A stretch of DNA of 20,000 nt, taken from Rozella allomycis CSF55 (Eukaryota). The notes beneath the pieces are model-generated. The model was not told the DNA's origin and did not search any database. It saw only the letters and a program-made list of their open reading frames with translations. This document shows positions 1 through 20,000 of this stretch, in pieces (within the stretch, counting starts at the first letter, position 1; each line of letters opens with the position of its first letter). The stretch spans positions 48,742-68,741 of the forward strand of contig KE561130.1 of assembly GCA_000442015.1 (NCBI GenBank), given 5' to 3'. A program made the position numbers and the translations under genes.

Positions 1-708
1 AGATAGGACCAAGAGCAGGATTGATATTCTTTAGAAAAGTAAGTGACCTTGAGTCGAGAATCAATTCTGCGGTGTTTCCTTCTTGCCAAGGTGGTCCTCA
101 TAATAACACTATTGCAGCGATTGCTGTCGCTCTAAAGCAAGTGTCTGACCCATGTTTCAAATTATATGCTAAGCAAGTTAAACTAAACGCAGTTGCTTTG
201 TCTTCAGCACTTCAATCCTTTGGCTACAAGATCGTCACAAGTGGGACAGNGCTACAAGATCGTCACAGGTGGGACAGATAACCACTTATTACTTTGGGAT
301 TTACGACCACTAAAGTTAACAGGTAGTAAAATGGAAAAAATATGTGATTATGTCAAGTAAATTAAGTATAATTCTATCTTAGCATCACCTTGAACAAAAA
401 CGCAATTCACGGGGATACCAGCGCGTTATCCCCCGGAGGAATACGACTTGGAACACCTTCTTTAACTTCAAGATCATTTAATGAAGATCATTTCCAAATA
501 GTTGCCGGGCTATTACATGAAACTGTCCAACTTGCATTAGATATCCAATCAAAGACTGGAACTAAATTGTTAAAAGACTTTGAACAGTCTCTAGTACTGG
601 ATGAAAGAGTCAATGTAATTATTTAGATGACTATTTATCTAGTCATTGAAACAAAAAGTCGTGGAATTCGCGAAAAAATTTCCCGCTCCGGGATTTTCTT
701 TTCAATAA
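1..708 (+). CDS. SHMT: Serine hydroxymethyltransferase, 3' part (5' end outside window)
   Basis: Spliced translation gives [11 protein letters not shown]...[23 protein letters not shown]...[14 protein letters not shown]...[29 protein letters not shown] introns 357-382 and 615-642, TAA 706-708. An N at 250 with a duplicated flank interrupts the frame. Confidence 0.96.
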
Positions 709-732
709 AATTCATATTTCAAAATTTTCTAA

Positions 733-1690: not shown

Positions 1691-1933
1691 ATGGCAAAGT
1701 CAAAGAATCACACTAACCATAATCAAAGTAATAACATTTTATCATTATCATATAGACAGAAAAGCTCACCGCAATGGAATCAAAAAAGTGAAGACCCATC
1801 GTTACAAATCCCTAAAAGGAGTATGATTGGTTTATTTTAAATATTAAAGGTCGATCCAAAATTTGTTCGCAACCAAAAATTTGCTCGTCGTGGAACTATC
1901 AGGGCTTTGAGAGCTACAAAAATGCAAGAATAA
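1691..1933 (+). CDS. RPL29: 60S ribosomal protein L29 (eL29)
   Basis: [46 protein letters not shown] after removing introns 1728-1755 and 1821-1849. TAA 1931-1933. Confidence 0.97.
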
Positions 1934-1967
1934 ATGTTACATCAATATTTTATAAAATTTGTTTATT

Positions 1968-3042
1968 TCACTGAAAAGCCAATGACGCAATCATTGAAGC
2001 AGAACTTTGCATTATGTTGTTACCCATTGTCTCTTCAACATTTTGCAAAAGATGCCTTTTCGGATCACGTTTGCCAATATGGCGGGTCTTAAGTTGTTCT
2101 TCTGTCAAGGTATCCTCTTCCTGAACACTTTTGTTGTACGCTTCTGTAAGAGCGAGCATTTTCTAAATTTCTGGAAAGGATTTCTTACCTTGATTGTTTC
2201 CGCATTCTTCGTAGAATGAGCTTCATGGTCAGATAGTTTTAGGCCGCTACTCCAAGTCTTTTTGTGCAAATTAAGTAGCATTTTTTGTTCAAGCTCATTC
2301 TTTCTATAGTTCATCGCGATGGAATAGTAATGTCTATTCAAACCGTGTATGAGAGTCTTTGTCAATGGAATATTTATATAATACCTGGATAGATGGTTTT
2401 TGCAAATGACCAATATTAGAGGTTGTTTGTCTTGGCTCGCGATTGGTTAAAATGTACTGAGCATCAATTAACCTGAACGCATCTATCACAACCTTCCCTT
2501 TAACTGACTGAATCGGATCAATAACAACAGCAACAGCACGTTTATGAAGCGATTCAAAACTCTAGTTTTCATAAAAACACATTTTCACCTGCTGAGTATT
2601 GACATCGACTGCAGATAGCCAGCAGCCAAAACCTGGATGTGAGTGATACCAACCAACCACGATTTCAGGTCTTCCTGTTTGCTTCAACATATCTAACATG
2701 CTTGTTTGAAACGCAGGATCTACTGACTCAACTGAAACTGATGTTCCGGATTGAGGCATTGCAAACACATCAACAACCTGGACAGTGTAATCGTCAATAA
2801 ACTCCCCAAGCATTAGTCCCATGACTTCCATAGGCACACCAGCGCGTCCTGTGTTTAGATATGATTATCCTTACCATGTTTCAGCATCTATTAAGCGTGA
2901 CAAAAATATTTACCTTCAGTAAAGCCAAGGAGGATATATGAATAACCTCTGAAGTGTCCATAATTTGTACATCTTGCCCCTGCTGAGTCATCTGAGTCAT
3001 CCCTCCCGCAGAAGCTAGTAGTTGTTGCAATCGTCTTTCCAT
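1968..3042 (-). CDS. RPN11: 26S proteasome lid deubiquitinase Rpn11/PSMD14
   Basis: [31 protein letters not shown] motif [28 protein letters not shown]. Introns 2888-2913, 2849-2874, 2562-2588, 2357-2384, 2163-2188. Confidence 0.97.
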
Positions 3043-4025: not shown

Positions 4026-4128
4026 AACAAGATTTGTCATAATAAATGATTGAATTTTCTACTTATATTCTATTTTTGATGAAATTGTCGTTAGGAACCC
4101 TCGTCGTTACCGGGGGTTTATTTGCCGA

Positions 4129-5264
<1,136 letters not shown>

Positions 5265-5417
5265 ATATTAACTTTTGTTAATTATAAATGATTTTCATTT
5301 TCTTACTTTTATTCTTCTTTTTAAATTTTTGATATAATATGGTTGTTCAGAACCTTTAGTTACACATTGTCAAATTTCCTTACAGGGCAGACCCACCCAA
5401 AATCGATTAATTGAATT

Positions 5418-7065: not shown

Positions 7066-7851
7066 TTATACATATTGTTGGAATTTTGATATCGACAGGT
7101 CTAATGTTATTTCATGCACATATTTACTAGCACTTGTCAACACCTTGCCCTCGGCATCTGTGCCTGACCATCCAACATAAATCTATGATATCAAATATCA
7201 ATATTATACTTTAATGTTACACGGATCTTTTTCAGTACACCTTTTAGCTGGAACACCATCAAGACAAGGTAATTTTTGGCTTAAAAATCGATCGCAAGTT
7301 GATTGATCCCAGAATACATCAACAATTATTCCTTACGTTCATTGTTAAATAGTTCTACCTTTGTTTAATCTGATTATCATTGTCCGTGATTTGGCACCGG
7401 CCTCGATTTGAGAATCATACCAAGGTCTTGGCGAAAGAGACACTAGAGAGTTATTGTATAAGACATCAACACCGATACTTGGCGCGTATGCAGTAACCAG
7501 ATCATTACCTTGAATAAAGCGATGATGCTTTTAGTTACTGTTGGGAATACTCAGTGCCGAGTATGTATCTACAGGTGCAAAAAATTGTGCTGTTTGATTG
7601 AATGTTGTTGAATAAGTTGAATTCACAGCAACAGATGCATAAAATCGCATATACATAGCCACGCATTCATCTTTTGAGTATAGAGTTTTTGATTTGAGTC
7701 TGTTGACCATCGCATTGCAAGCGCCTGCGACAGTAGAAACACCACAATTGCATGTCTTATCTGATCCAGAGGTTGGAACTGATGATACAGTTTGAGTTTG
7801 GCCATTTAAGAAGAGGCATTGTGACAAGAAAAGCAGGAAGAATAAAAACAT
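7066..7851 (-). CDS. Uncharacterised secreted Cys-rich protein (5 exons)
   Basis: Signal-peptide-like N-terminus. GT-AG introns 7509-7538, 7332-7358, 7183-7209, 7101-7127 keep the frame open to ...CNIKIYVGWSGTDAEGKVLTSANLSISKFQQYV*. AATAAA follows the stop. Confidence 0.8.
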
Positions 7852-8046
7852 AACGAGATTACGTAAACAAACAAACCTATTCTTTTGAATGAATAAAGGA
7901 CTCTATTTTAATTAATGTAAAAGTAAATTTCTTTCGCATTATTTTTTGACTGAATGTTTATTAACTAAATAATGTAAAATTTGAAGTGCTTTGAATAAGA
8001 TGATAGAATTTACATTTTCTCTTTTAAAATTGTATTGATAATTAAT

Positions 8047-8154: not shown

Positions 8155-10248
8155 ATGATGCAACGATACCTACTTTCGCGAACAATTAATGCTTTTAGAC
8201 CATTTAGGTAATTGTGAAATGAAAGAAATAACAATAGCACTAAAGCCCAAGGAGCAGTTATTGGAGTTGACTTGGGTACAACATTTTCTTGTGTGGCAGC
8301 CATGGAAGGAAAGACACCAAGAATTATAGAGAACAGTGAGGGAGCGAGAACGACTCCATCAGTGGTGGCATTTACCAAGGAGGGGGAGTTGCTAGTGGGA
8401 CAGCCAGCTAGACGCCAAGTAAAAAGTGAGGTTGTATGAGATAGGCTGTTGTTAACCCTGAAAACACAGTGTATGCAGCGAAGAGATTGATAGGACGCAA
8501 GTTTGAAGATCCAGCAGTGCAGAGAGATTTGAAGACTGTTTCATATAAGATAGTGAGACATAATAATGGGGATGCATGGATAGAGGCTGGTGGCAAGAAG
8601 TATTCACCGAGTCAAATTGGAGGATTTGTGTTGGGAAAGATGAAGGAAACAGCCGAGGCGTATTTGGGAAAGAAGGTAGTGAATGCGGTAGTGACTGTGC
8701 CTGCGTATTTTAATGATGCGCAAAGACAAGCGACTAAAGATGCAGGAAAGATTGCAGGGTTGGATGTGTTGAGAGTTATTAACGAACCAACCGCTGCGGC
8801 GCTAGCGTATGGAATGGACAAGTCTGGAGATCGAGTAGTTGCTGTTTATGATTTGGGTAATTTGGTGATTGATTGTTGATGAAGGTGGAGGAACATTTGA
8901 TATAAGTATTTTGGATATCCAGAATGGAGTGTTTGAGGTTAGATCAACTAATGGAGATACGCATTTGGGAGGAGAAGATTTTGATCATCAATTGTTGGAA
9001 TATATTTGTTCAGAATTTAAGAAGAGTTCAGGGGTTGATATTTCAAAAGATAAAATGGCACTTCAAAGAGTTAGAGAAGCAGCTGAGAAGGCGAAGATTG
9101 AATTGTCGAGTTCTTTGCAAACAGAAATCAACTTGCCATACATTTCAGCCAATGCAAGTGGGCCAGTCCATTTGAATATTAACTTGACAAGATCTAAATT
9201 TGAATCCCTTGTCAATAATTTAATTGAAAGAACAAAAACACCATGTGAGAAAGCAATTAAAGATGCTGGATTGACTGTTGATAAGATTAGTGAAGTTATT
9301 CTAGTTGGAGGAATGACCAGGGTACCTAAAGTGCAAGAAACAGTTAAAAATTTATTTAAGAAAGATCCATCGAAAGGAGTTAATCCAGATGAGGCTGTGG
9401 CTACAGGAGCAGCGATCCAAGGTGGTGTTTTAGCTGGAGACGTTAAAGATGTGTTGTTGTTGGATGTGACGCCTCTTTCTCTTGGTAATTTGAATTGGAT
9501 TTATTAATGAAAGGAATTGAAACGTTGGGTGGAGTTTTCACGAGATTGATTACAAGAAACACGACGATTCCAACGAAAAAGTCTCAAGTGTTTTCAACAG
9601 CCGCCGATGGTCAAACGCAAGTAGAAATTAGAGTCTTTCAAGGAGAAAGAGAATTAGTCAAAGATAATAAACTTTTAGGTTCCTTCAATCTTGTTGGAAT
9701 ACCACCTGCTCCACGTGGGGTTCCTCAGATTGAAGTCACCTTTGACATTGACGCTGATGGAATTGTTAATGTCTCTGCTAAAGATAAAGCCACAAATAAA
9801 GATCAATCTATCACAATTGTGGCGTCTGGTGGCTTGTCTAAAGATGAAATTGAAAAAATGGTTCATGACTCTGAACAATACGCTGAAGCTGATAAAAAGA
9901 AAAAGGAAGCAATTGAATCCATCAACTCTGCCGAATCTTTCATTGCAGAAGTTGAAAAAAGTTTGAATGAATACAAGGATCAATTAGATCAAGAAAAGGC
10001 AAATCAATTGAAATCAAGCATTGAAGAATTAAGAGTCCTAATGAAAGAATCTGAAGACCCCGAAGCTATCAATTCCAAAGTTCACGAAGTCAAACAATCT
10101 TCTCTAGCTCTATTTGAATTGGTTTACAAGAATGTAAATTTATTTCTTCTTTTTAATTTAGCGTGCAAATGCAAACAACTCTTCTTCTTCCTCTGAATCT
10201 TCATCAAACCAAGATGCTGACTTTAAAGATGCAAACAATGCAAAATAA
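8155..10248 (+). CDS. SSC1: Mitochondrial Hsp70
   Basis: Arg-rich, acid-free presequence [27 protein letters not shown]; mitochondrial signatures GDAWI and YSPSQIG. Introns 8208-8237, 8419-8444, 8857-8884, 9485-9513, 10134-10161. TAA 10246-10248. Confidence 0.97.
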
Positions 10249-10392
10249 TCATTCACAAATAAATTAAACTTGTATCACTATTAAGAATTTACTTATATGC
10301 GATTTGATTGGATTATTGTTTTTTAGAATACAATGTTTTAAGGAATCTTTTTATTTTCTATTTCTTTTCTTACAATCTCCTTTGTGGCTTGG

Positions 10393-13300
10393 ATGTCATT
10401 TCTATTGTTCGCTACGCTTCTTTTTCAATTGTTTTTATTAATTTCAGCATATTCTGTCAATTCAAGATTAGAAGCTCATTGGCTAAACTCGTTAACATTG
10501 GAAGCATATCATTTCTTTTCCTTTGACCAAGAATCTTTCATATCTTTTCTTTCCACTGCACACAATCAAAAACAAGAATACGAAAATATTCTCACATTTA
10601 CAAGGAAAAAGTATCCATTGCTTGAGCCCTACTTGAATTTCACTCTCTCTTCCAGGCTCTTTGCCCCTCTAGTTTCAAGTACTCTGATTACATGCAATAA
10701 TAATTCATTAATTGCTGCTAAATGCCATGATGAATGGAATTGCTTTTCATCAATATCTGATATATCAAATTTGAAATGTACAGATATTGCTGGAAGATTC
10801 AACAATATTGAATTTGTAGACTTTATCAAACAAAATAGTCACTTGAAATTGCATTTATTAAATAATTTGAATTCCGAATTTAATGATGCTCTGAACCCTT
10901 CAAAATTTGCACTTTCTGGTTATGGGGTTGAATTAGTGGTAAAAAATTCAGAGTATCTTGTGTTGGATGATTTGAAATTTAAAGATTTTATAAAAGATAA
11001 AGAATTCAATAAACTTATTGAGAACAATGATGAGCAAATAGATGAGAAAGTTAGTGAATTGTTGAGTGACCCTAAAATTCATACATTGAATTCAACTGAA
11101 AATGAAATGGCAATCAATGGGATCTTTTCTATTTTAAAAGACTCTTATAACTTTTTAAATGATTTAACAACAATTTCCCATAATTATCCAATTGTCATTC
11201 CACATTTGCTCAAAAGTGCCAAAAGGAAAAAGATACGAAAATATGAAAGGGATGTTTTATTTTTGAATAATATTCCTCTTGATATGAATCAAATTAATTT
11301 ATTCCAGTAATAGTTTTGAATGAAATGAATAGTTTAATTAGTTACTTGAATTCCATAAAGATACTTGAAGTAGTTTGTAAAAAGGTTTGGAATAAAGATA
11401 TTGGAAGAATAATTAAAGAATTTAGGGGAATGAAATTGATATCTCCCAGATTTGATATTCCAGTTGAGAAATGCATAACGATATCGGATGTTGAAAGAGA
11501 TAAGAGATTTAAGCATTTTTCAAGGGATATAAGCAGAGTAAGTTTTTAATTTAAAATTTAAAGATATTTTATCCATTTAATGGACCGTTGATTCCCATTA
11601 GATTCAATATGGCAACTCTTGTGTATGTGTTTGATATTTCGGACAATGAACAGTATAAAGAGATTTTAGATTCTCTGGTGTTTCTTGTGCAAAATACAAT
11701 TCCCTTGAGAATATTAATTTTGCCGTTTGCGACGAATGATTTTGATTTAATAAATTTGGTTTCAATTTCTGAAATTTCGAGTCCAAAGAAGATTATTGAA
11801 ATTTTGAAAGATTTGAAATCAAATAAAGAAAAAGAAGAAATTAATGAAAACATTGAAAAGATTAAAATTTGGAATGAAATTGGAAGAAAATTTTCTGGAT
11901 TTAAAAAGAATTCATTTTTTCTTAATGGAAGAGAAATTTTGATTGAAACTTTTGAGGTAAAAATGTTTTTTTAATTAGAAAGCCAAATTCTATATATTCA
12001 TCTGTGGCTAATGCATTTGAAAAAGATCTTGAATTTTTTCAATCTAGATTTGAAAGTTTGGATTTAAAGACAAATTTTTATGAATTAATATTAAATTCAG
12101 ATAAAAGATTTAATTTTAATTATCCATTATTTTTCAAGTCTATTAATTATTTAGAATTTTCCAATTTAAAGCAAGTTTTGTGGATAAAGGAAAAGTCATT
12201 GCCAGGAAAGATTATGATTTTTGCGAATTCTAAAATTTCATTTAAATTTGAATTGAAAAAAGAATTTAATTTAATTTTAGATGAATTTTTAGATTATAAA
12301 TTGGCGATTAATTCATTTGCTATTAATGGAAGAATATTTGAGCTTGAAGATTCAGAATTGACGAGAGAAATATTTGATTTGGCTTTGGAGATTTATTTGT
12401 ACGAGACGAGAGAGAATAACTTTGGCGATGAAAAGTGGTGTACTAAAAGTGGTGAAAAGTGGTGTATTAAAAATGGTAAAAAGAGTGAGGAGTGTATTAA
12501 ATGCAATTGTATAGAATGTGTTGATTGTGGATGTGATTATCGCGATGAAGAAAGTGTTATTACTTCTACTATACCTGCTAATGATTCTACTATACCTGCT
12601 AATGATTCTACTTTGAATAATTGTAAGTCTAACTCATTGATAGCAGTCGCTTTGGGTACGCTGCAAAATCAATTTAAATTGCTTCCAACAAGAGATGAAA
12701 GAAACGAAGAAATAAAATTTGATCTTTTTGTAAACCAAAAATGTTTGTTTTGCTTTAAATGGATTTCAACGCCATTGTCCAAATCAACTCTTTCTCTTTC
12801 TAAAATATTTAAAGAATTAACCACTAGCAATGAAATTGGAGTCTCATTTGGATTTAATGCAAATAATATTCAGAAATTTGAATCTAATCGAATCTATAGA
12901 TTTGTTTTTTCATCCAAGCCACAATTTGATCTAGAAAAGTAAAAAAAATAATTTTAATTAAAAGTAAATTAATTCTAGATTACGCAAAGTTTGAAAATGT
13001 TCCAATGGAGACTCTGTTTACTTTGAATTATGATGTTATTCATGAGTGGATTGTAGTTCCAGAGAAGGGAGAAGATGACTTTGATAACATTAAACTATCC
13101 TTGCTAAGAAAGAATGTTTACAGCATTTACAAACTATCAAATATTTTAACACAAGGCCAAGCTATAGATGAAACCAACATGGATTATCCAAAGGGTCTGG
13201 AGATCCAAATGGGGATCAACAAGATTAAAAATATTCAAGCATCAAATGGTGAAAGTGTAAATACATCAAACATCGATACAATCGTCATGTACAATCTCGG

Positions 13301-14638
13301 CTACTTTCAACTAAAAACAAACCCCGGCAGTTGGTTCATTTCACTTTGCAATGGAAAATCATCCGATTTCTTCTCTATAACTTTTCCCACAAATATTCTA
13401 GTAAATAAATTTCATGGATCATCCGTCTTACTAAAATTAAAACGCAACAAGGGAAAAGAATATTTAGACTTTAACAAAGAACCTTCAAATGTTTCCATCT
13501 GGAAATTTCTTGCAAATAAAATTCCATTCTTGAAAAATGAAAATAAATCAAAAGCAGAAATTAACATTTTTTCTGTTGCGTCTGGCCATCTTTATGAACG
13601 AATGCTAAGAATTATGATCAAAAGCGTTGTTTCCAACACAAAGTCTTCTGTCAAGTTTTGGTTCATTGAAAGCTTTCTTTCCCCAACATTCAAAGTATTT
13701 CAACTAATCTCATTTAACTAGAAAACAATCCCCTTCTTGGCTAAAGAATACAATTTCATCTATGAAATGGTGGCTTATAAGTGGCCCACGTGGCTTAGAG
13801 ATCAGAAAGAAAAACAAAGAAAAATTTGGGGCTACAAAATTTTATTTCTCGATGTTCTTTTTCCTCTAGATCTCGATAAAATAATCTTCGTTGACGCAGA
13901 TCAAGTAAATTTCTCAATCTATTTATATCTTGATTGTTAGGGCGGATCTTAAAGAATTAATTAATTTAGATCTCCATGGGGCTCCTTACGCCTTCACTCC
14001 GTTTTGCGACTCTAGAGAAGACATGCAAAATTTTAGATTCTGGAATCATGGCTACTGGAAATCTTTCCTCGGCGATAATTTAAAATACCACATTAGGTAC
14101 AAAATTATGTCTCCTTAAATCTAAGCGCCCTGTTTGTCGTTGATCTAAAAAGATTCAGAGAAATTGCGGCAGGCGATTTGTTGCGCCAAACTTACCACTC
14201 TCTATCGCTAGATCCCAATTCTTTGGCAAATCTAGATCAAGATCTACCAAATCACATGCAACAATTTGGTCTTAAAATTCATTCTCTCCCTCAAGAATGG
14301 CTGTGGTGCGAAACTTGGTGTGACGACAAATCTCTTTCAACTGCAAAAACAATCGATCTCGTAATCAAACTCTTTCACTCTTATAGTGCAACAATCCAAA
14401 AACTAAAGAGCCAAAACTGGATCGTGCAAGACGCTTAATTCCTGAATGGAACATTTACGACAATGAACTCACAAATCTACTACTATTCATTCAAAAAGCA
14501 CTTGAAATTTACCCTCAAAATTATTTATTAGAAAACTGGAATTATATTCGCCAAAATAAATTTCATCTTGAACTTTATCCCGCTGTCTACAATTTTAAGC
14601 CCCATCTCAGCCACTTTTTAAGATGGACTCGAGACTGA
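10393..14638 (+). CDS. UGGT: UDP-glucose:glycoprotein glucosyltransferase; true C-terminus probably HLEL at 14575, first genomic stop 14636-14638
   Basis: Signal peptide, [17 protein letters not shown]24 motifs [63 protein letters not shown]. Introns 11307-11332, 11538-11563, 11957-11982, 12939-12964, 13695-13721, 13905-13932 (GT-TG), 14097-14125, 14361-14386. Confidence 0.94.
12429..12612 (+). repeat. Coding tandem repeats within UGGT (24-nt x2; 21-nt x2.3)
   Basis: TGAAAAGTGGTGTA(C/T)TAAAA(G/A)TGG at 12429-12476; TTCTACTATACCTGCTAATGA at 12564-12612. Confidence 0.9.
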
Positions 14639-15687
14639 GACCACAAAGTGACTCATTCTTAAACAACTTTTTTCTACATGCCCCTTCTCCAAAATCAAAC
14701 TCTGCTCTCGATGACTTCATTTCTCAATATTCTGGAACTCGCTCTTCAACGCCAGTCGAAAAATTTTTACAGAGACCTCAAACAGAAATGATATCCAAAA
14801 ATGACTCTACAAACTTTGATAAATTATTCGATGATTTAAAATATCACGAAAATATGTTCCAAACAATGGCAAAAGCTAGACTTTGTCACACCTTCCAAGA
14901 AGAACTAAATGATATCAATGTTTGGTTCAAAGTACTGTCAGATGCTGAAAAAATAACTCTTATCTATTCTCTTATTCATCATTTAAGCCCTTTACACACA
15001 GTAACAACCATCACTATATATAATTATAGCGCTTTTTGAGTTCCGTTTTGCTTCGTGTAAATAACGAAATTCCAACACCCGCAGAATCTCCAATATCGAG
15101 AAACAGTATTCTTTCCTTAATATTCAATAATAGATGAAGAAAAAACCAACAGTTTACGGACTGGAAGTTTAAAACGGCTCAGTAGTCGCCTCTACGATAG
15201 ATCAGTAACTTCCTTGATGGAATGTAAGATTTACATGATTTTAAAAGTAGCACTATCATTCGAAGAGACTCAATACAGCGTGAATAGCAATACTAATATT
15301 CTCAAACGTCACATCCCGTCACCAATTGCAAGGCCTGATTCTTGTAAAACAAAGACAATGGAAAGACAAATGAAAAATAGTTGCTTAAAAATCTCTTTAA
15401 GAGATGAGGAAAAAAGCGAAGAATGCGATAAGCGTGAAAAAGGAAAAATTCCAGATTCAATTGATTTGGATCTTTTGGAAGGTAAAATCTCTTGCTTTAT
15501 TTTCATAGACGTCCCTGCATGGCTTAGATCCTTAAGATTGCACAAGTATTCGCCAATTTTTGAAAAAATGAACTGGAAATCCATGATATACTTGACAGAT
15601 GAACAACTTGAAGCGATGGGAGTGTCTGCTCTGGGAGCAAGGCGCAAGATGCTTAAAGTATTTGATAAAATCAAAGAACAAATTTAA
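14623..15687 (+). CDS. VTS1: Vts1/Smaug-family SAM-domain RNA-binding protein
   Basis: [10 protein letters not shown] region and SAM domain [14 protein letters not shown]...[11 protein letters not shown]. Introns 15001-15029, 15106-15133, probably 15224-15250, and 15482-15508. Confidence 0.9.
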
Positions 15688-15752
15688 TCCATTAACTTTT
15701 AATAAAACATTTATTTTAATTATATCTTACAGGGTTTTGTTTCCGAATTTTC

Positions 15753-17102
<1,350 letters not shown>

Positions 17103-17669: not shown

Positions 17670-18090
17670 CACGCTCTAAATAAATTAATCCTTCAATCAC
17701 GTATATTTTATTTGACATTTTTTTGGGAAATATTAATGCAGGCCTATGCCCTATTAATTCAGAAATAATTCAGATAATCGATTTTATAAAAGACATAGAG
17801 CATCTCAAAAATCTTTCCGGCAATTTTCTAGAGAGATTTCTTATCACGTATCAAGTCCAAGGCTCAAATTTTATATTGAATTGAGCCATCCAAGCGTTTG
17901 AAGAAATGTCATTTATTGTGTTGGAGACGATTCAGTAGTAAGTACACTGTTAAATGTGGTGGTCGACTCAAGCTGTTGCTGTGTCAATATAATATGTATT
18001 ATGTAATTATATGATTACAATAATATGATAAATGTGTTCAGACAAATATGTAAGAAGTAAATCTATTTTTACAAGGGTGGGTTAGCAAAA

Positions 18091-18941: not shown

Positions 18942-19532
18942 TGTAAGGATANCGACAATTTAAAATCCACCAGACCATGTAAGAAACTAGATTTACAGTT
19001 TATTAGACCGTTTAATATTCTAGAACAGATTAATCAAGTTACTTACAAGTTGAAGTTACCGCCTGAGTACCGCATTCACAATGTTTTCCATGTATCCTTA
19101 CTAGAACCATTTAATCCTTCTAAACAATTTTTAAAGAAAGAAAAATTCATAGATTAACCTTTGTTTAGTTAACACAGAAAATTTACTACAACCTGAAGCT
19201 ATCTTAGATTCTAAATTTATTAATGATAGGTTACATTATCTAATTCAGGGAAAGAATCAACCACCATCAGAAAGAAGTTGGGAAAATATTGATACTTTAA
19301 AGAATTTTGCATCACTCATTGATAACTTTCACAAATCCAAAAGAAATCCTAGAAGAGGGGGTGATGTAAGGATACCCTTACATAAGCATGTAACTCTTAG
19401 ATTTCCTGATCATCGATAATCGATTGAAGCTTAAGGAAACAATATAAATAAAATCACTGAATACAAGACCCCAGTCTTGTTAATTCAGACTTTTAAATTA
19501 GTTTCTAATTTAATTGACAAGTATTTCTTACA
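18942..19532 (+). mobile_element. Degenerate Ty3/Gypsy chromovirus LTR retrotransposon, interior lost at an N gap
   Basis: LTR start TGTAAGGATA at 18942, then N at 18952. Integrase C-terminus KKLD..FIRPF..YKLKLP..RIHNVFHVSLLEP. Chromodomain PEAILDSK...HYLI..K......SWE. In-frame stop and frameshift between them. Polypurine tract AGAAGAGGGGG 19351-19361. Confidence 0.9.
19365..19532 (+). repeat. 3' LTR (~168 bp)
   Basis: Starts TGTAAGGATAC just after the PPT and ends GTATTTCTTACA (imperfect terminal inverted repeat). Contains TATAAA and AATAAA. Confidence 0.8.
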
Positions 19533-19636
19533 ACAACCTTCACAACAACAGGACCTGAAATTAAATATTACTTCGAATATTGAAGGTTGTGAATTCACTG
19601 ACTAAATTTGGGAGAAAACAGAAGCAAAAAATGGTT

Positions 19637-19694
19637 ACATACACACACACACAGACAGACACACAGACACACACACACACATACACAGACACAC
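19637..19694. repeat. (CA)n microsatellite with CAGA/CATA interruptions
   Basis: Directly visible CACACA...CAGACA run. Confidence 0.95.
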
Positions 19695-20000
19695 CACTCG
19701 ACAACCCCCTGGTCAGCGATGTAAATCGCTAAAGGTGAGTGTATATTCGAAGTGAAAATGGCATTAACTCAACTTGCCAATAATCGTTTCTGAAGTCCGG
19801 GTCGTAAACTCCCCGTCAGATAAAATTTACAGGTCTTCTTATTTTAGCAACTCTTTAACGTTTCTAGCTTTGGTTCCTTAAAATTTAGGAAAAACGTAAG
19901 TTTTTCCGAATATTACCGAATTCCGAATATTACCTGTCGTACCAGGGATTCTCATCCCACTTCACAGAGGGATTCTCATCCCACCTTCCTTAGAATAATT

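What the first reader, a model, noticed from the sequence alone, without database searches (positions are those of the whole stretch)
14555..14638. UGGT stop codon may be created by polyadenylation (HLEL + UA|AAA)
Seen: the last UGGT exon reads ...NKF-HLEL-Y (CAT CTT GAA CTT TAT, 14564-14578) and runs on to a TGA at 14636-14638, overlapping the VTS1 start by 16 nt. An AATAAA sits at 14555-14560, with none near the TGA, whereas nearly every other gene here has AATAAA at or within ~35 nt after its stop. Known: UGGTs usually end in HDEL/HEEL-like ER retrieval signals, and poly(A)-generated stops occur in animal mitochondria and in Blastocystis nuclear genes. Inference: cleavage after T14576 or A14577 (16-17 nt past AATAAA) would yield UAA and expose HLEL*. 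I am not aware of this mechanism in fungal nuclear genes.
Basis: partly seen in the sequence, partly recalled or inferred. Interest (0 to 1): 0.8.

Follow-up and report, generated by a model that had tools for sequence, protein, structure and literature searches.

The report
Possible poly(A)-made stop codon in Rozella UGGT
In the parasite fungus Rozella allomycis, the gene for an ER quality-control enzyme runs on for 20 codons past its expected HLEL end signal, and the sequence fits, but does not prove, a stop codon made only when the poly(A) tail is added.

Summary
The window is Rozella allomycis CSF55, and the gene is its UGGT (EPZ32652.1). The last exon reads ...NKF-HLEL-Y and runs 20 codons on to TGA 14636-38, overlapping the next gene's ATG by 16 nt. 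AATAAA lies at 14555-60.

A second Rozella assembly encodes the same HLEL-Y tail, so this is not an assembly error.

- HLEL sits where the family ends. 106 of 111 homologues end in x-x-[DE]-[LF], including HIEL and RVEL. Internal [HKR]xEL is rare in their tails (2 per 6161 positions).
- AATAAA behaves as the poly(A) signal here. In 10 of 11 other definable genes it starts -2 to +35 nt from the stop.
- For UGGT it starts 21 nt before TAT, and no other follows until 15701.
- The only adenines 13-30 nt past the hexamer are A14577 and A14589, and both are position 2 of in-frame TAY codons.

So UA + poly(A) = UAA after HLEL is plausible (about 0.4), but it is unproven because no RNA data could be found. 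Thirteen internal AATAAA hexamers show that the hexamer alone is not sufficient.

Rivals are a real extension with a transcript that runs into the next gene, and early gene decay. The same gene also has a GT..TG intron.

The parts
10393..14638 (+). UGGT (UDP-glucose:glycoprotein glucosyltransferase, GT24) gene of Rozella allomycis, as annotated (ATG to TGA), with 8 short introns
   Evidence: the window matches EPZ32652.1 (P0122). Precomputed Pfam domains are PF18402, PF06427 and PF18404. tblastn of P0122 and of Rhizophagus P0010 was run.
14555..14560 (+). AATAAA hexamer inside the coding sequence (codons AAT AAA = N K). Candidate poly(A) signal of UGGT.
   Evidence: The same hexamer starts -2 to +35 nt from the stop in 10 of 11 other genes.
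14564..14575 (+). Codons for HLEL, a KDEL-type ER retrieval motif at the family's usual C-terminal position
   Evidence: 106 of 111 homologues end x-x-[DE]-[LF]; HIEL, RVEL and KYEL occur.
14576..14578 (+). TAT (Tyr) codon. Cleavage after A14577 plus poly(A) would give UAA.
   Evidence: A14577 is 17 nt past the hexamer's end, is preceded by T and is at codon position 2. The Y is confirmed in the second assembly.
14579..14638 (+). 19-codon remainder of the annotated extension plus TGA. GC is 0.47. Under the poly(A) reading this is the promoter or leader of the next gene, not UGGT coding sequence.
   Evidence: GC 0.47, against 0.24-0.33 in 8 intergenic stretches and 0.31 in the last exon up to HLEL. 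(CCC/GGG patches lie 15-45 nt upstream of other ATGs as well).
14623..15687 (+). Downstream SAM-domain (VTS1-like) gene. Its ATG overlaps the annotated UGGT end by 16 nt. Its own AATAAA is at 15701-15706.
   Evidence: (SAM_2 1.4e-10).
13905..13932 (+). 28-nt UGGT intron with GT..TG ends (non-canonical acceptor). The next AG (13939-40) would shift the frame to DADQGGS*.
   Evidence: frame 1 from 13933 reads [19 protein letters not shown], matching homologues ([13 protein letters not shown]...). The Rhizophagus HSP starts at 13933.

Best explanation
The UGGT mRNA of Rozella allomycis is cleaved about 17 nt downstream of the in-frame AAUAAA (14555-60), after A14577. The poly(A) tail then completes UA to UAA. 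The protein therefore ends in ...NKFHLEL, exposing a KDEL-type ER retrieval signal, and the 20 annotated codons up to TGA 14636 are not translated.

Shown:
- the gene, the frame and the TAT
- that HLEL sits at the family's normal terminus
- that AATAAA marks gene ends in this window
- that no canonical signal follows the TGA

Inferred:
- that this particular hexamer is used
- that cleavage falls at A14577
- that HLEL works as a retrieval signal in Rozella

A likely history: the 3' UTR shrank until cleavage fell inside an ancestral TAA. The third base then became neutral and drifted to T.
For: (1) HLEL is at the expected terminus. 106 of 111 homologues end x-x-[DE]-[LF]. Position -4 is H in 34 of 103 and position -3 is variable (D, S, T, E, V, I, A, Y). 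Internal [HKR]xEL occurs 2 times per 6161 positions. In metagenome loci, 26 of 38 tails read to a stop end in x-x-[ED]-[LF] directly before a genomic stop. The other 12 appear to be interrupted by introns.
(2) 10 of 11 other genes have AATAAA starting -2 to +35 nt from the stop, and two have the stop inside the hexamer. 3' UTRs here are therefore already very short.
(3) The UGGT hexamer starts 21 nt before the TAT. That is close to the roughly 20 nt hexamer-to-cleavage distance stated in PMC2803860 and the 22-nt median 3' UTR of stop-in-hexamer genes in Naegleria (PMC11529991).
(4) The only adenines 13-30 nt past the hexamer are A14577 and A14589. Both are preceded by T and both are at position 2 of in-frame TAY codons.
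(5) After the TGA there is no AATAAA until 15701, only AATCAA at 14693 and GATAAA at 14818.
(6) With the TGA, UGGT would overlap the next gene's coding sequence by 16 nt. With A14577 there is a 45-nt spacer whose GC-rich CCC patches resemble other ATG-upstream regions.
(7) The Tyr codon is present in a second, diverged assembly copy whose ORF is also intact.
(8) The same logic (a missing C-terminal motif restored by a poly(A)-made stop) led to the discovery in Blastocystis, and UAU-to-UAA conversion by polyadenylation (PAY*) is described for mammalian genes (PMC4159000).
Against: There is no RNA evidence of any kind.

- AATAAA is not sufficient. Thirteen other sense-strand hexamers lie inside coding sequences of this window, 8 of them in UGGT, with no depletion against the antisense strand (9 sense and 7 antisense in UGGT).
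- The 45 nt after the hexamer are less A+T-rich (0.62) and more C-rich (0.29) than at all 10 presumed genuine sites (A+T 0.64-0.82, C at most 0.16).
- No other gene in the window has its hexamer wholly upstream of the stop, so UGGT would be an outlier.
- No precise positioning element like the Blastocystis TGTTTGTT motif is visible. Ordinary cleavage scatter would yield non-stop mRNAs.
- L at position -3 was not seen among the 103 -EL homologues.
- One of the 11 other genes (PP1) also lacks AATAAA after its stop, so a non-canonical signal is possible.
- The same gene has a second anomaly (a GT..TG intron), which raises the odds of decay.
- All 11 other genes have ordinary genomic stops, so nothing in the window suggests a genome-wide habit.
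Confidence: 0.4

Rival explanations
1. The annotated ORF is right. A stop-loss change (TAA or TAG to TAT) extended UGGT by 20 residues to TGA 14636. The mRNA ends at a non-canonical site or runs on into or through the VTS1-like gene. HLEL is a masked relic, and the AATAAA at 14555 is one more non-functional coding hexamer.
For: Thirteen other internal sense AATAAA hexamers are evidently tolerated. PP1 shows that a gene here can lack a canonical hexamer. Transcription overrun and multi-gene transcripts with stochastic AAUAAA recognition are documented in the sister group Microsporidia (PMC2803860, passages). The downstream context of 14555 is more C-rich than at genuine sites. Both public annotations use the TGA.
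Against: It needs several coincidences together. A retrieval motif must be kept exactly at the family terminus (about 0.02 by chance). A hexamer must lie 21 nt before it (about 3-5%). No canonical signal may follow the TGA (1 of 11 genes). There must be a 16-nt coding overlap, which I saw at no other gene junction that I examined in the window (not systematically checked). It would also leave a signal-peptide-bearing lumenal enzyme without a free retrieval signal, unlike 106 of 111 homologues. The annotations carry spurious 15-nt introns, so they carry little weight.
Confidence: 0.3
2. UGGT is in early decay in this reduced parasite. The lost stop after HLEL and the lost AG acceptor of intron 13905-13932 are two recent single-base lesions (both could be A-to-T changes) in a gene that is no longer needed.
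For: There are two rule-breaking features in one gene. By the usual first-AG rule the mRNA would read DADQGGS* and lose most of the catalytic domain. The N-terminal domains are divergent, with fewer Pfam domains than the homologues. From my own recall, not checked here, Microsporidia have lost N-glycan quality control.
Against: About 1300 codons in 9 exons are otherwise intact in an A+T-rich genome. The exons after the odd intron are still 58-69% identical to Rhizophagus. A second copy that differs at 34 residues is also intact and has no residue change in the last 470 residues. This looks like purifying selection. Decay does not explain the hexamer position or the missing downstream signal.
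Confidence: 0.15
3. The hexamer at 14555 is used, but cleavage is elsewhere or scattered. For example, cleavage after A14589 would give ...HLELYPAV*. Cleavage at non-A positions would give non-stop mRNAs that are degraded. HLEL would then be exposed only in a fraction of molecules or not at all.
For: A14589 is also position 2 of an in-frame TAC, 29 nt past the hexamer. Cleavage scatter of a few nt is seen in E. cuniculi (33, 34 or 35 nt; 415, 417 or 419 nt; PMC2803860).
Against: It would waste transcripts and mask HLEL. A14577 lies nearer the usual distance of about 20 nt.
Confidence: 0.1

Closest known systems
Polyadenylation-created termination codons in Blastocystis nuclear genes (Klimes et al. 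2014, PMC4159000; main text parts 1-2 read)
   Same: The gene has no genomic stop where the protein should end. An in-frame U or UA is completed to UAA by the tail. Annotation wrongly extends the last exon to the next in-frame stop. The case was recognised through a missing C-terminal motif (CaaX there, HLEL here).
   Different: In Blastocystis about 15% of genes are affected, with EST proof, and the site is set by a conserved TGTTTGTT element 4 nt downstream with no upstream AAUAAA. Here there is one candidate gene, no RNA proof, an upstream AATAAA and no such downstream motif (GCTGTCTAC follows).
PAY* (polyadenylation-mediated Tyr-to-stop conversion) in mammalian EPRS and other genes (Yao et al. 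2012, seen only as described in PMC4159000)
   Same: Cleavage inside an in-frame UAU or UAC codon within the coding region, which poly(A) converts to UAA.
   Different: PAY* is an alternative site that makes a truncated isoform beside a normal full-length mRNA. Here it would be the main or only way to make the functional C-terminus.
Dual-use stop codons overlapping AAUAAA in compact protist genomes (Sajek et al. 2024, PMC11529991; passages read)
   Same: Extreme 3' UTR shortening around an AAUAAA signal. This window has two such genes (SHMT at 704-709, RPL29 at 1929-1934) and one stop that abuts the hexamer (Rpn11).
   Different: In dual-use cases the stop is still encoded in the genome. In UGGT the hexamer lies wholly upstream and no stop is encoded.
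Transcription overrun and overlapping transcripts in Microsporidia (Peyretaillade et al. 2009, PMC2803860; passages read)
   Same: A sister lineage with a compact genome, where AAUAAA lies near the stop in about half of the genes and some transcripts run into downstream genes. This is the model for the main rival.
   Different: In those cases the stops are genomic and poly(A) sites lie 16-419 nt after them.
Incomplete T/TA stop codons completed by polyadenylation in animal, dinoflagellate and diplonemid mitochondria (as summarised in PMC4159000)
   Same: UAA is completed by the tail and there is no 3' UTR.
   Different: That is an organellar system with different processing machinery. This is a nuclear gene with spliceosomal introns.

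Membership tests
Poly(A)-completed nuclear stop codon (Blastocystis type / PAY*) | No genomic in-frame stop at the position where homologous proteins end | tested here: met
   TAT follows HLEL. 106 of 111 homologues end at the equivalent x-x-[DE]-[LF].
Poly(A)-completed nuclear stop codon (Blastocystis type / PAY*) | In-frame U, UA or UG at the cleavage site | tested here: met
   T14576 and A14577 are codon positions 1-2. Met only as a possibility, because the cleavage site itself is unknown.
Poly(A)-completed nuclear stop codon (Blastocystis type / PAY*) | Poly(A) junction mapped at that nucleotide in mRNA | not testable with these tools
   No RNA holder was listed. Run X1 gave only 18-25-nt matches. 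There are no transcript-derived protein fragments.
Poly(A)-completed nuclear stop codon (Blastocystis type / PAY*) | A positioning signal at a fixed short distance from the site | tested here: inconclusive
   AATAAA ends 17 nt upstream of A14577, and the hexamer marks 10 of 11 other gene ends. Thirteen internal hexamers are apparently not used. No Blastocystis-like TGTTTGTT motif lies downstream.
Poly(A)-completed nuclear stop codon (Blastocystis type / PAY*) | Recurrence in other genes of the genome | tested here: not met
   0 of 11 other definable genes in the window lack a genomic stop. The rest of the genome is not held, so this covers the window only.
KDEL-type ER retrieval signal | Tetrapeptide [KRH..]-x-[DE]-L with a free carboxyl terminus | tested here: inconclusive
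   H at -4 and EL at -2/-1 fit (H in 34 of 103). L at -3 is unseen among the 103, though I, V, A and Y occur. The motif is terminal only if the poly(A) stop is real. In the annotated ORF it is internal.
UGGT / glycosyltransferase family 24 | GT24 catalytic domain with a DxD motif, N-terminal thioredoxin-like domains and a signal peptide | tested here: met
   Precomputed PF18402, PF06427 and PF18404. The catalytic exons are 51-69% identical to Rhizophagus UGGT. FVDADQ is present. The hydrophobic N-terminus [19 protein letters not shown] was judged a signal peptide by eye. In-frame splicing needs a TG acceptor.

The most novel reading that the evidence does not exclude
Rozella allomycis has shrunk some 3' UTRs to zero. 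A subset of its nuclear genes, not only UGGT, would then rely on an upstream AAUAAA and the poly(A) tail to complete their stop codons. This would be the first such case in the fungal/opisthosporidian lineage. It would mean that a share of annotated Rozella C-termini (ER, prenylation and peroxisomal signals) are wrongly extended.
Probability: 0.12. Interest if true: 0.75.

Novelty: new member of a known kind. Interest (0 to 1): 0.5.

Why it matters
If it is confirmed, this would extend poly(A)-completed nuclear stop codons from Blastocystis and a few mammalian isoforms to the lineage at the base of Fungi and Microsporidia, and with a different positioning signal (an upstream AAUAAA).

It would show that genome compaction can repeatedly remove the 3' UTR down to part of the stop codon. 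It would also warn that extending to the first in-frame stop mis-annotates C-terminal sorting signals in compact eukaryotes.

The test is a single 3' RACE. If the reading is wrong, the locus is still a clear example of a masked ER signal or of the first steps of loss of glycoprotein quality control in a parasite.

Tried and rejected
- RNA evidence. The look-up of sequencing runs listed no RNA holder, only one metatranscriptome with the same species label and next to none of the words. Laying that run on 9900-15800 gave 4 contigs with 18-25-nt chance matches and nothing usable.
- Whole genome. None is held, so no genome-wide scan for in-frame T/TA at hexamer +21 was possible.
- Transcript- or read-derived protein fragments ending at HLEL. 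Searches with the last exon at lengths 45-146 and 147-2000 returned only the known NCBI cluster.
- Close relatives for a comparative test. The metagenome scan gave 54 loci, with best identity 74-75%, and none was Rozella-like at the tail. The apparent tail match of L026 is a low-identity alignment to an animal-like gene with introns.
- Alternative splice to a stop after HLEL. Rejected, because there is no GT next to it. The only GT between 14440 and 14640 is at 14585, and GTCTAC...AAG would be a 15-nt intron.
- Another exon ending in x-x-EL-stop downstream. None exists between 14380 and 15800.
- Assembly error at 14578. Rejected on the second assembly's protein. Both copies could still represent one haplotype in this region, since there are 0 residue differences in the last 470 residues and one difference in a retained-intron stretch.
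- Telling genuine from internal hexamers by flanking composition. The ranges overlap, and 14555 is intermediate: downstream T 0.40 is within the genuine range, while A+T 0.62 and C 0.29 are outside it.
- Earlier notes of this scan. There are none for this genome.
- Literature. Searches for Rozella with polyadenylation, Rozella RNA-seq, Microsporidia with stop codon and polyadenylation and fungi with nuclear genes and poly(A)-created stops returned no report of this mechanism in fungi. Most results were seen only as listings. Supplementary files were not seen.

Full report
**Identity of the locus.** The window is Rozella allomycis CSF55 (Cryptomycota/Rozellomycota). A 238-residue exon (12981-13694) is 99% identical to RKP19222.1 (P0002). 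The other cluster member, EPZ32652.1 (P0122, 1315 aa, named a UDP-glucose:glycoprotein glucosyltransferase domain protein), matches the window's own variant residues. The next best relatives are Glomeromycota UGGTs at 47% identity or less over that exon. No whole genome is held for the window.

**The observation.**
- AATAAA lies at 14555-60, HLEL (CAT CTT GAA CTT) at 14564-75 and TAT at 14576-78.
- The frame then runs [20 protein letters not shown] to TGA 14636-38.
- The downstream SAM-domain gene (Pfam SAM_2 1.4e-10) starts at ATG 14623, so the annotated UGGT end overlaps it by 16 nt.
- No splice can remove the extension. The only GT between 14440 and 14640 is at 14585, and no other x-x-[ED]-[LF]-stop exists in + frames between 14380 and 15800.
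- The Tyr after HLEL is also present in the independently assembled single-cell copy P0002. That copy differs from P0122 at 34 of 1283 aligned residues but has the identical tail. The base at 14578 is therefore not an assembly error.
- One caution applies. The last 470 residues show no amino-acid difference between the copies, so they may share a haplotype in this region.

**Is HLEL the real terminus?**
- Of the 119 other proteins returned, 111 carry the CNNPxTKExKL motif. Of these, 106 end in x-x-[DE]-[LF] and 103 end in -EL. The endings include KDEL 36, RDEL 17, HSEL 13, HTEL 10, HDEL 5, HIEL 2, RVEL 2 and KYEL 1.
- The 5 exceptions look partial or mis-modelled.
- Tail length from the motif is 47-153 residues, median 66.5. 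Rozella has 63 residues to HLEL and 83 to the TGA.
- Internal [HKR]xEL occurs twice in 6161 tail positions, so about 0.02 is expected by chance in the Rozella tail.
- In metagenome contigs, 40 of 54 loci carry the motif and 38 of these read to a stop. Of the 38, 26 end x-x-[ED]-[LF] directly before a genomic stop. The other 12 appear to run into introns.
- None of these loci is a close Rozella relative; best identity is 74-75%.
- HLEL is thus almost certainly the ancestral, and possibly the present, C-terminus. Leucine at position -3 was not seen among the homologues, but I, V, A and Y were.

**Is AATAAA the poly(A) signal here?**
- For 11 other genes I could define the last exon. They are SHMT, a methyltransferase, RPL29, a JAB/Rpn11-like protease, PIG-L, PP1, an MFS transporter, mitochondrial Hsp70, the SAM/VTS1-like gene, an actin-related protein and Scm3. 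Pfam supports most of these names. RPL29, Hsp70 and the methyltransferase were named by eye.
- I left out one minus-strand gene around 7345-7902 and a few unnamed ORFs, because their ends were unclear.
- In 10 of the 11 genes an AATAAA starts -2, -2, +3, +8, +12, +14, +16, +18, +33 or +35 nt from the first base of the stop. PP1 has none.
- The background density of sense hexamers is about 1.1 per kb, so about 4% is expected per gene by chance.
- In two genes (SHMT, RPL29) the TAA lies inside the hexamer.
- For UGGT the hexamer starts 21 nt before the TAT and 81 nt before the TGA.
- After the TGA no AATAAA occurs until 15701, which is the next gene's own signal. The only one-mismatch variants are AATCAA at 14693 and GATAAA at 14818.

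**Where would cleavage fall?** PMC2803860 gives about 20 nt from AAUAAA to the cleavage site. In Naegleria, stop-in-hexamer genes have a median 3' UTR of 22 nt. Between +13 and +30 nt after the hexamer's end there are only two adenines, A14577 and A14589. Both are preceded by T and both sit at position 2 of in-frame TAY codons. Cleavage after A is the usual preference; that is general knowledge and was not tested here. Cleavage after A14577 gives UAA directly after HLEL. Cleavage after A14589 would give ...HLELYPAV*.

**What speaks against it.**
- The hexamer is not sufficient. Thirteen other sense-strand AATAAA hexamers lie inside coding sequences in this window, 8 of them in UGGT, with no sense-strand depletion.
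- Flanking composition does not separate the classes cleanly.
  - Downstream T at 14555 is 0.40, within the genuine range of 0.33-0.53.
  - Downstream A+T (0.62) and C (0.29) fall outside the 10 genuine sites.
- No precise downstream element like the Blastocystis TGTTTGTT motif is present.
- No other gene in the window has its hexamer wholly upstream of the stop, and all 11 have genomic stops.
- No RNA evidence could be obtained.

**Context that fits the poly(A) reading.**
- The 57 nt after the TAT have GC 0.47. This compares with 0.24-0.33 in eight intergenic stretches and 0.31 in the last exon up to HLEL.
- This stretch carries CCC and CCCC patches 23-43 nt before the VTS1-like ATG. Similar CCC/GGG patches lie 15-45 nt before the PP1, MFS and Scm3 ATGs.
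- A CCC-like motif before start codons is reported for E. cuniculi (PMC2803860 abstract).
- The stretch may therefore be the neighbour's promoter or leader rather than UGGT coding sequence.

**A second anomaly in the same gene.**
- Homology requires the exon after ...FVDADQ to begin at 13933 (ATT GTT AGG = [19 protein letters not shown]). Homologues read [13 protein letters not shown]..., and the Rhizophagus HSP starts at 13933.
- That makes intron 13905-13932 a 28-nt GT..TG intron.
- The first AG (13939-40) would give DADQGGS*.
- By eye, the other 7 introns are GT-AG.
- Both public models avoid the problem with a different intron that deletes the conserved peptide. They also contain spurious 15-nt introns (for example, skipping VKNSE), so the annotation, including its C-terminus, carries little weight.
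- This anomaly raises the possibility of early gene decay.
- Against decay, about 1300 codons are intact in two diverged copies, and the catalytic exons remain 58-69% identical to Rhizophagus after the odd intron.

**Comparison with what is known.**
- In Blastocystis about 15% of nuclear genes get their stop from the tail. This was found through missing CaaX motifs and proven by ESTs, and the site is positioned by a downstream TGTTTGTT motif (PMC4159000).
- That paper also describes PAY*, a UAU/UAC-to-UAA conversion by coding-region polyadenylation in mammalian genes, and the mouse thymidylate synthase case. I did not read those primary papers.
- Microsporidia, the sister group, show AAUAAA near the stop in about half of the genes and transcripts that overrun into downstream genes (PMC2803860). 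This is the model for the main rival.
- My searches found no report of poly(A)-made stops in fungal nuclear genes.

**Verdict.** The rivals are:
- a true 20-residue extension with a transcript that runs into the next gene (about 0.3)
- early decay of the gene (about 0.15)
- use of the hexamer with cleavage elsewhere (about 0.1)

One 3' RACE would settle it.

Noticed in passing
window 13905-13941: UGGT intron with GT..TG ends. In-frame splicing to the conserved [13 protein letters not shown] peptide needs a TG acceptor at 13931-32. The first AG (13939-40) would frameshift to DADQGGS*. Both public protein models dodge this with a wrong intron ([11 protein letters not shown] in place of the conserved peptide).
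   Followed up: partly
window 704-709 and 1929-1934: Dual-use stop codons. The TAA of SHMT and the TAA of RPL29 lie inside the AATAAA hexamer (caATAAa, gaATAAa). The Rpn11-like gene has TGA directly followed by AATAAA (1970-1962, minus strand).
   Followed up: partly
window 1929-1970: Convergent RPL29 (+) and Rpn11-like (-) genes have their poly(A) hexamers only about 30 nt apart. Their transcripts must therefore overlap tail to tail or end within each other's signals.
   Followed up: no
window 10900-10960 and 11370-11400: The annotated UGGT models contain spurious mini-introns of about 15 nt. One skips VKNSE in [18 protein letters not shown] and another skips VCKKV. The deposited gene models at this locus were evidently not guided by RNA.
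   Followed up: partly
P0002 vs P0122 (whole UGGT): The two Rozella CSF55 assemblies encode UGGT copies that differ at 34 of 1283 aligned residues. All differences lie in the first ~850 residues, apart from one in a retained-intron stretch. This suggests divergent haplotypes and strong constraint (or loss of heterozygosity) on the catalytic third.
   Followed up: partly
window 4085-4128, 5375-5417, 14579-14622, 18060-18090: Short G/C-rich patches (CCC, GGG, CCCC) lie 15-45 nt upstream of several ATGs in otherwise A+T-rich spacers. They recall the CCC-like motif reported upstream of microsporidian start codons.
   Followed up: no
window 5262-5330: PP1 is the only one of the 11 definable genes without AATAAA after its stop. 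The nearest look-alike is TATAAA within AATTATAAATGA, about 20 nt downstream.
   Followed up: no
window 18942-19419 and 19600-19730: ORF fragments resembling a retroelement integrase/chromodomain tail (…NVFHVSLLEPF…), followed by a long (CA/GT)n-like simple repeat. The window also contains N positions near 250 and 18950.
   Followed up: no
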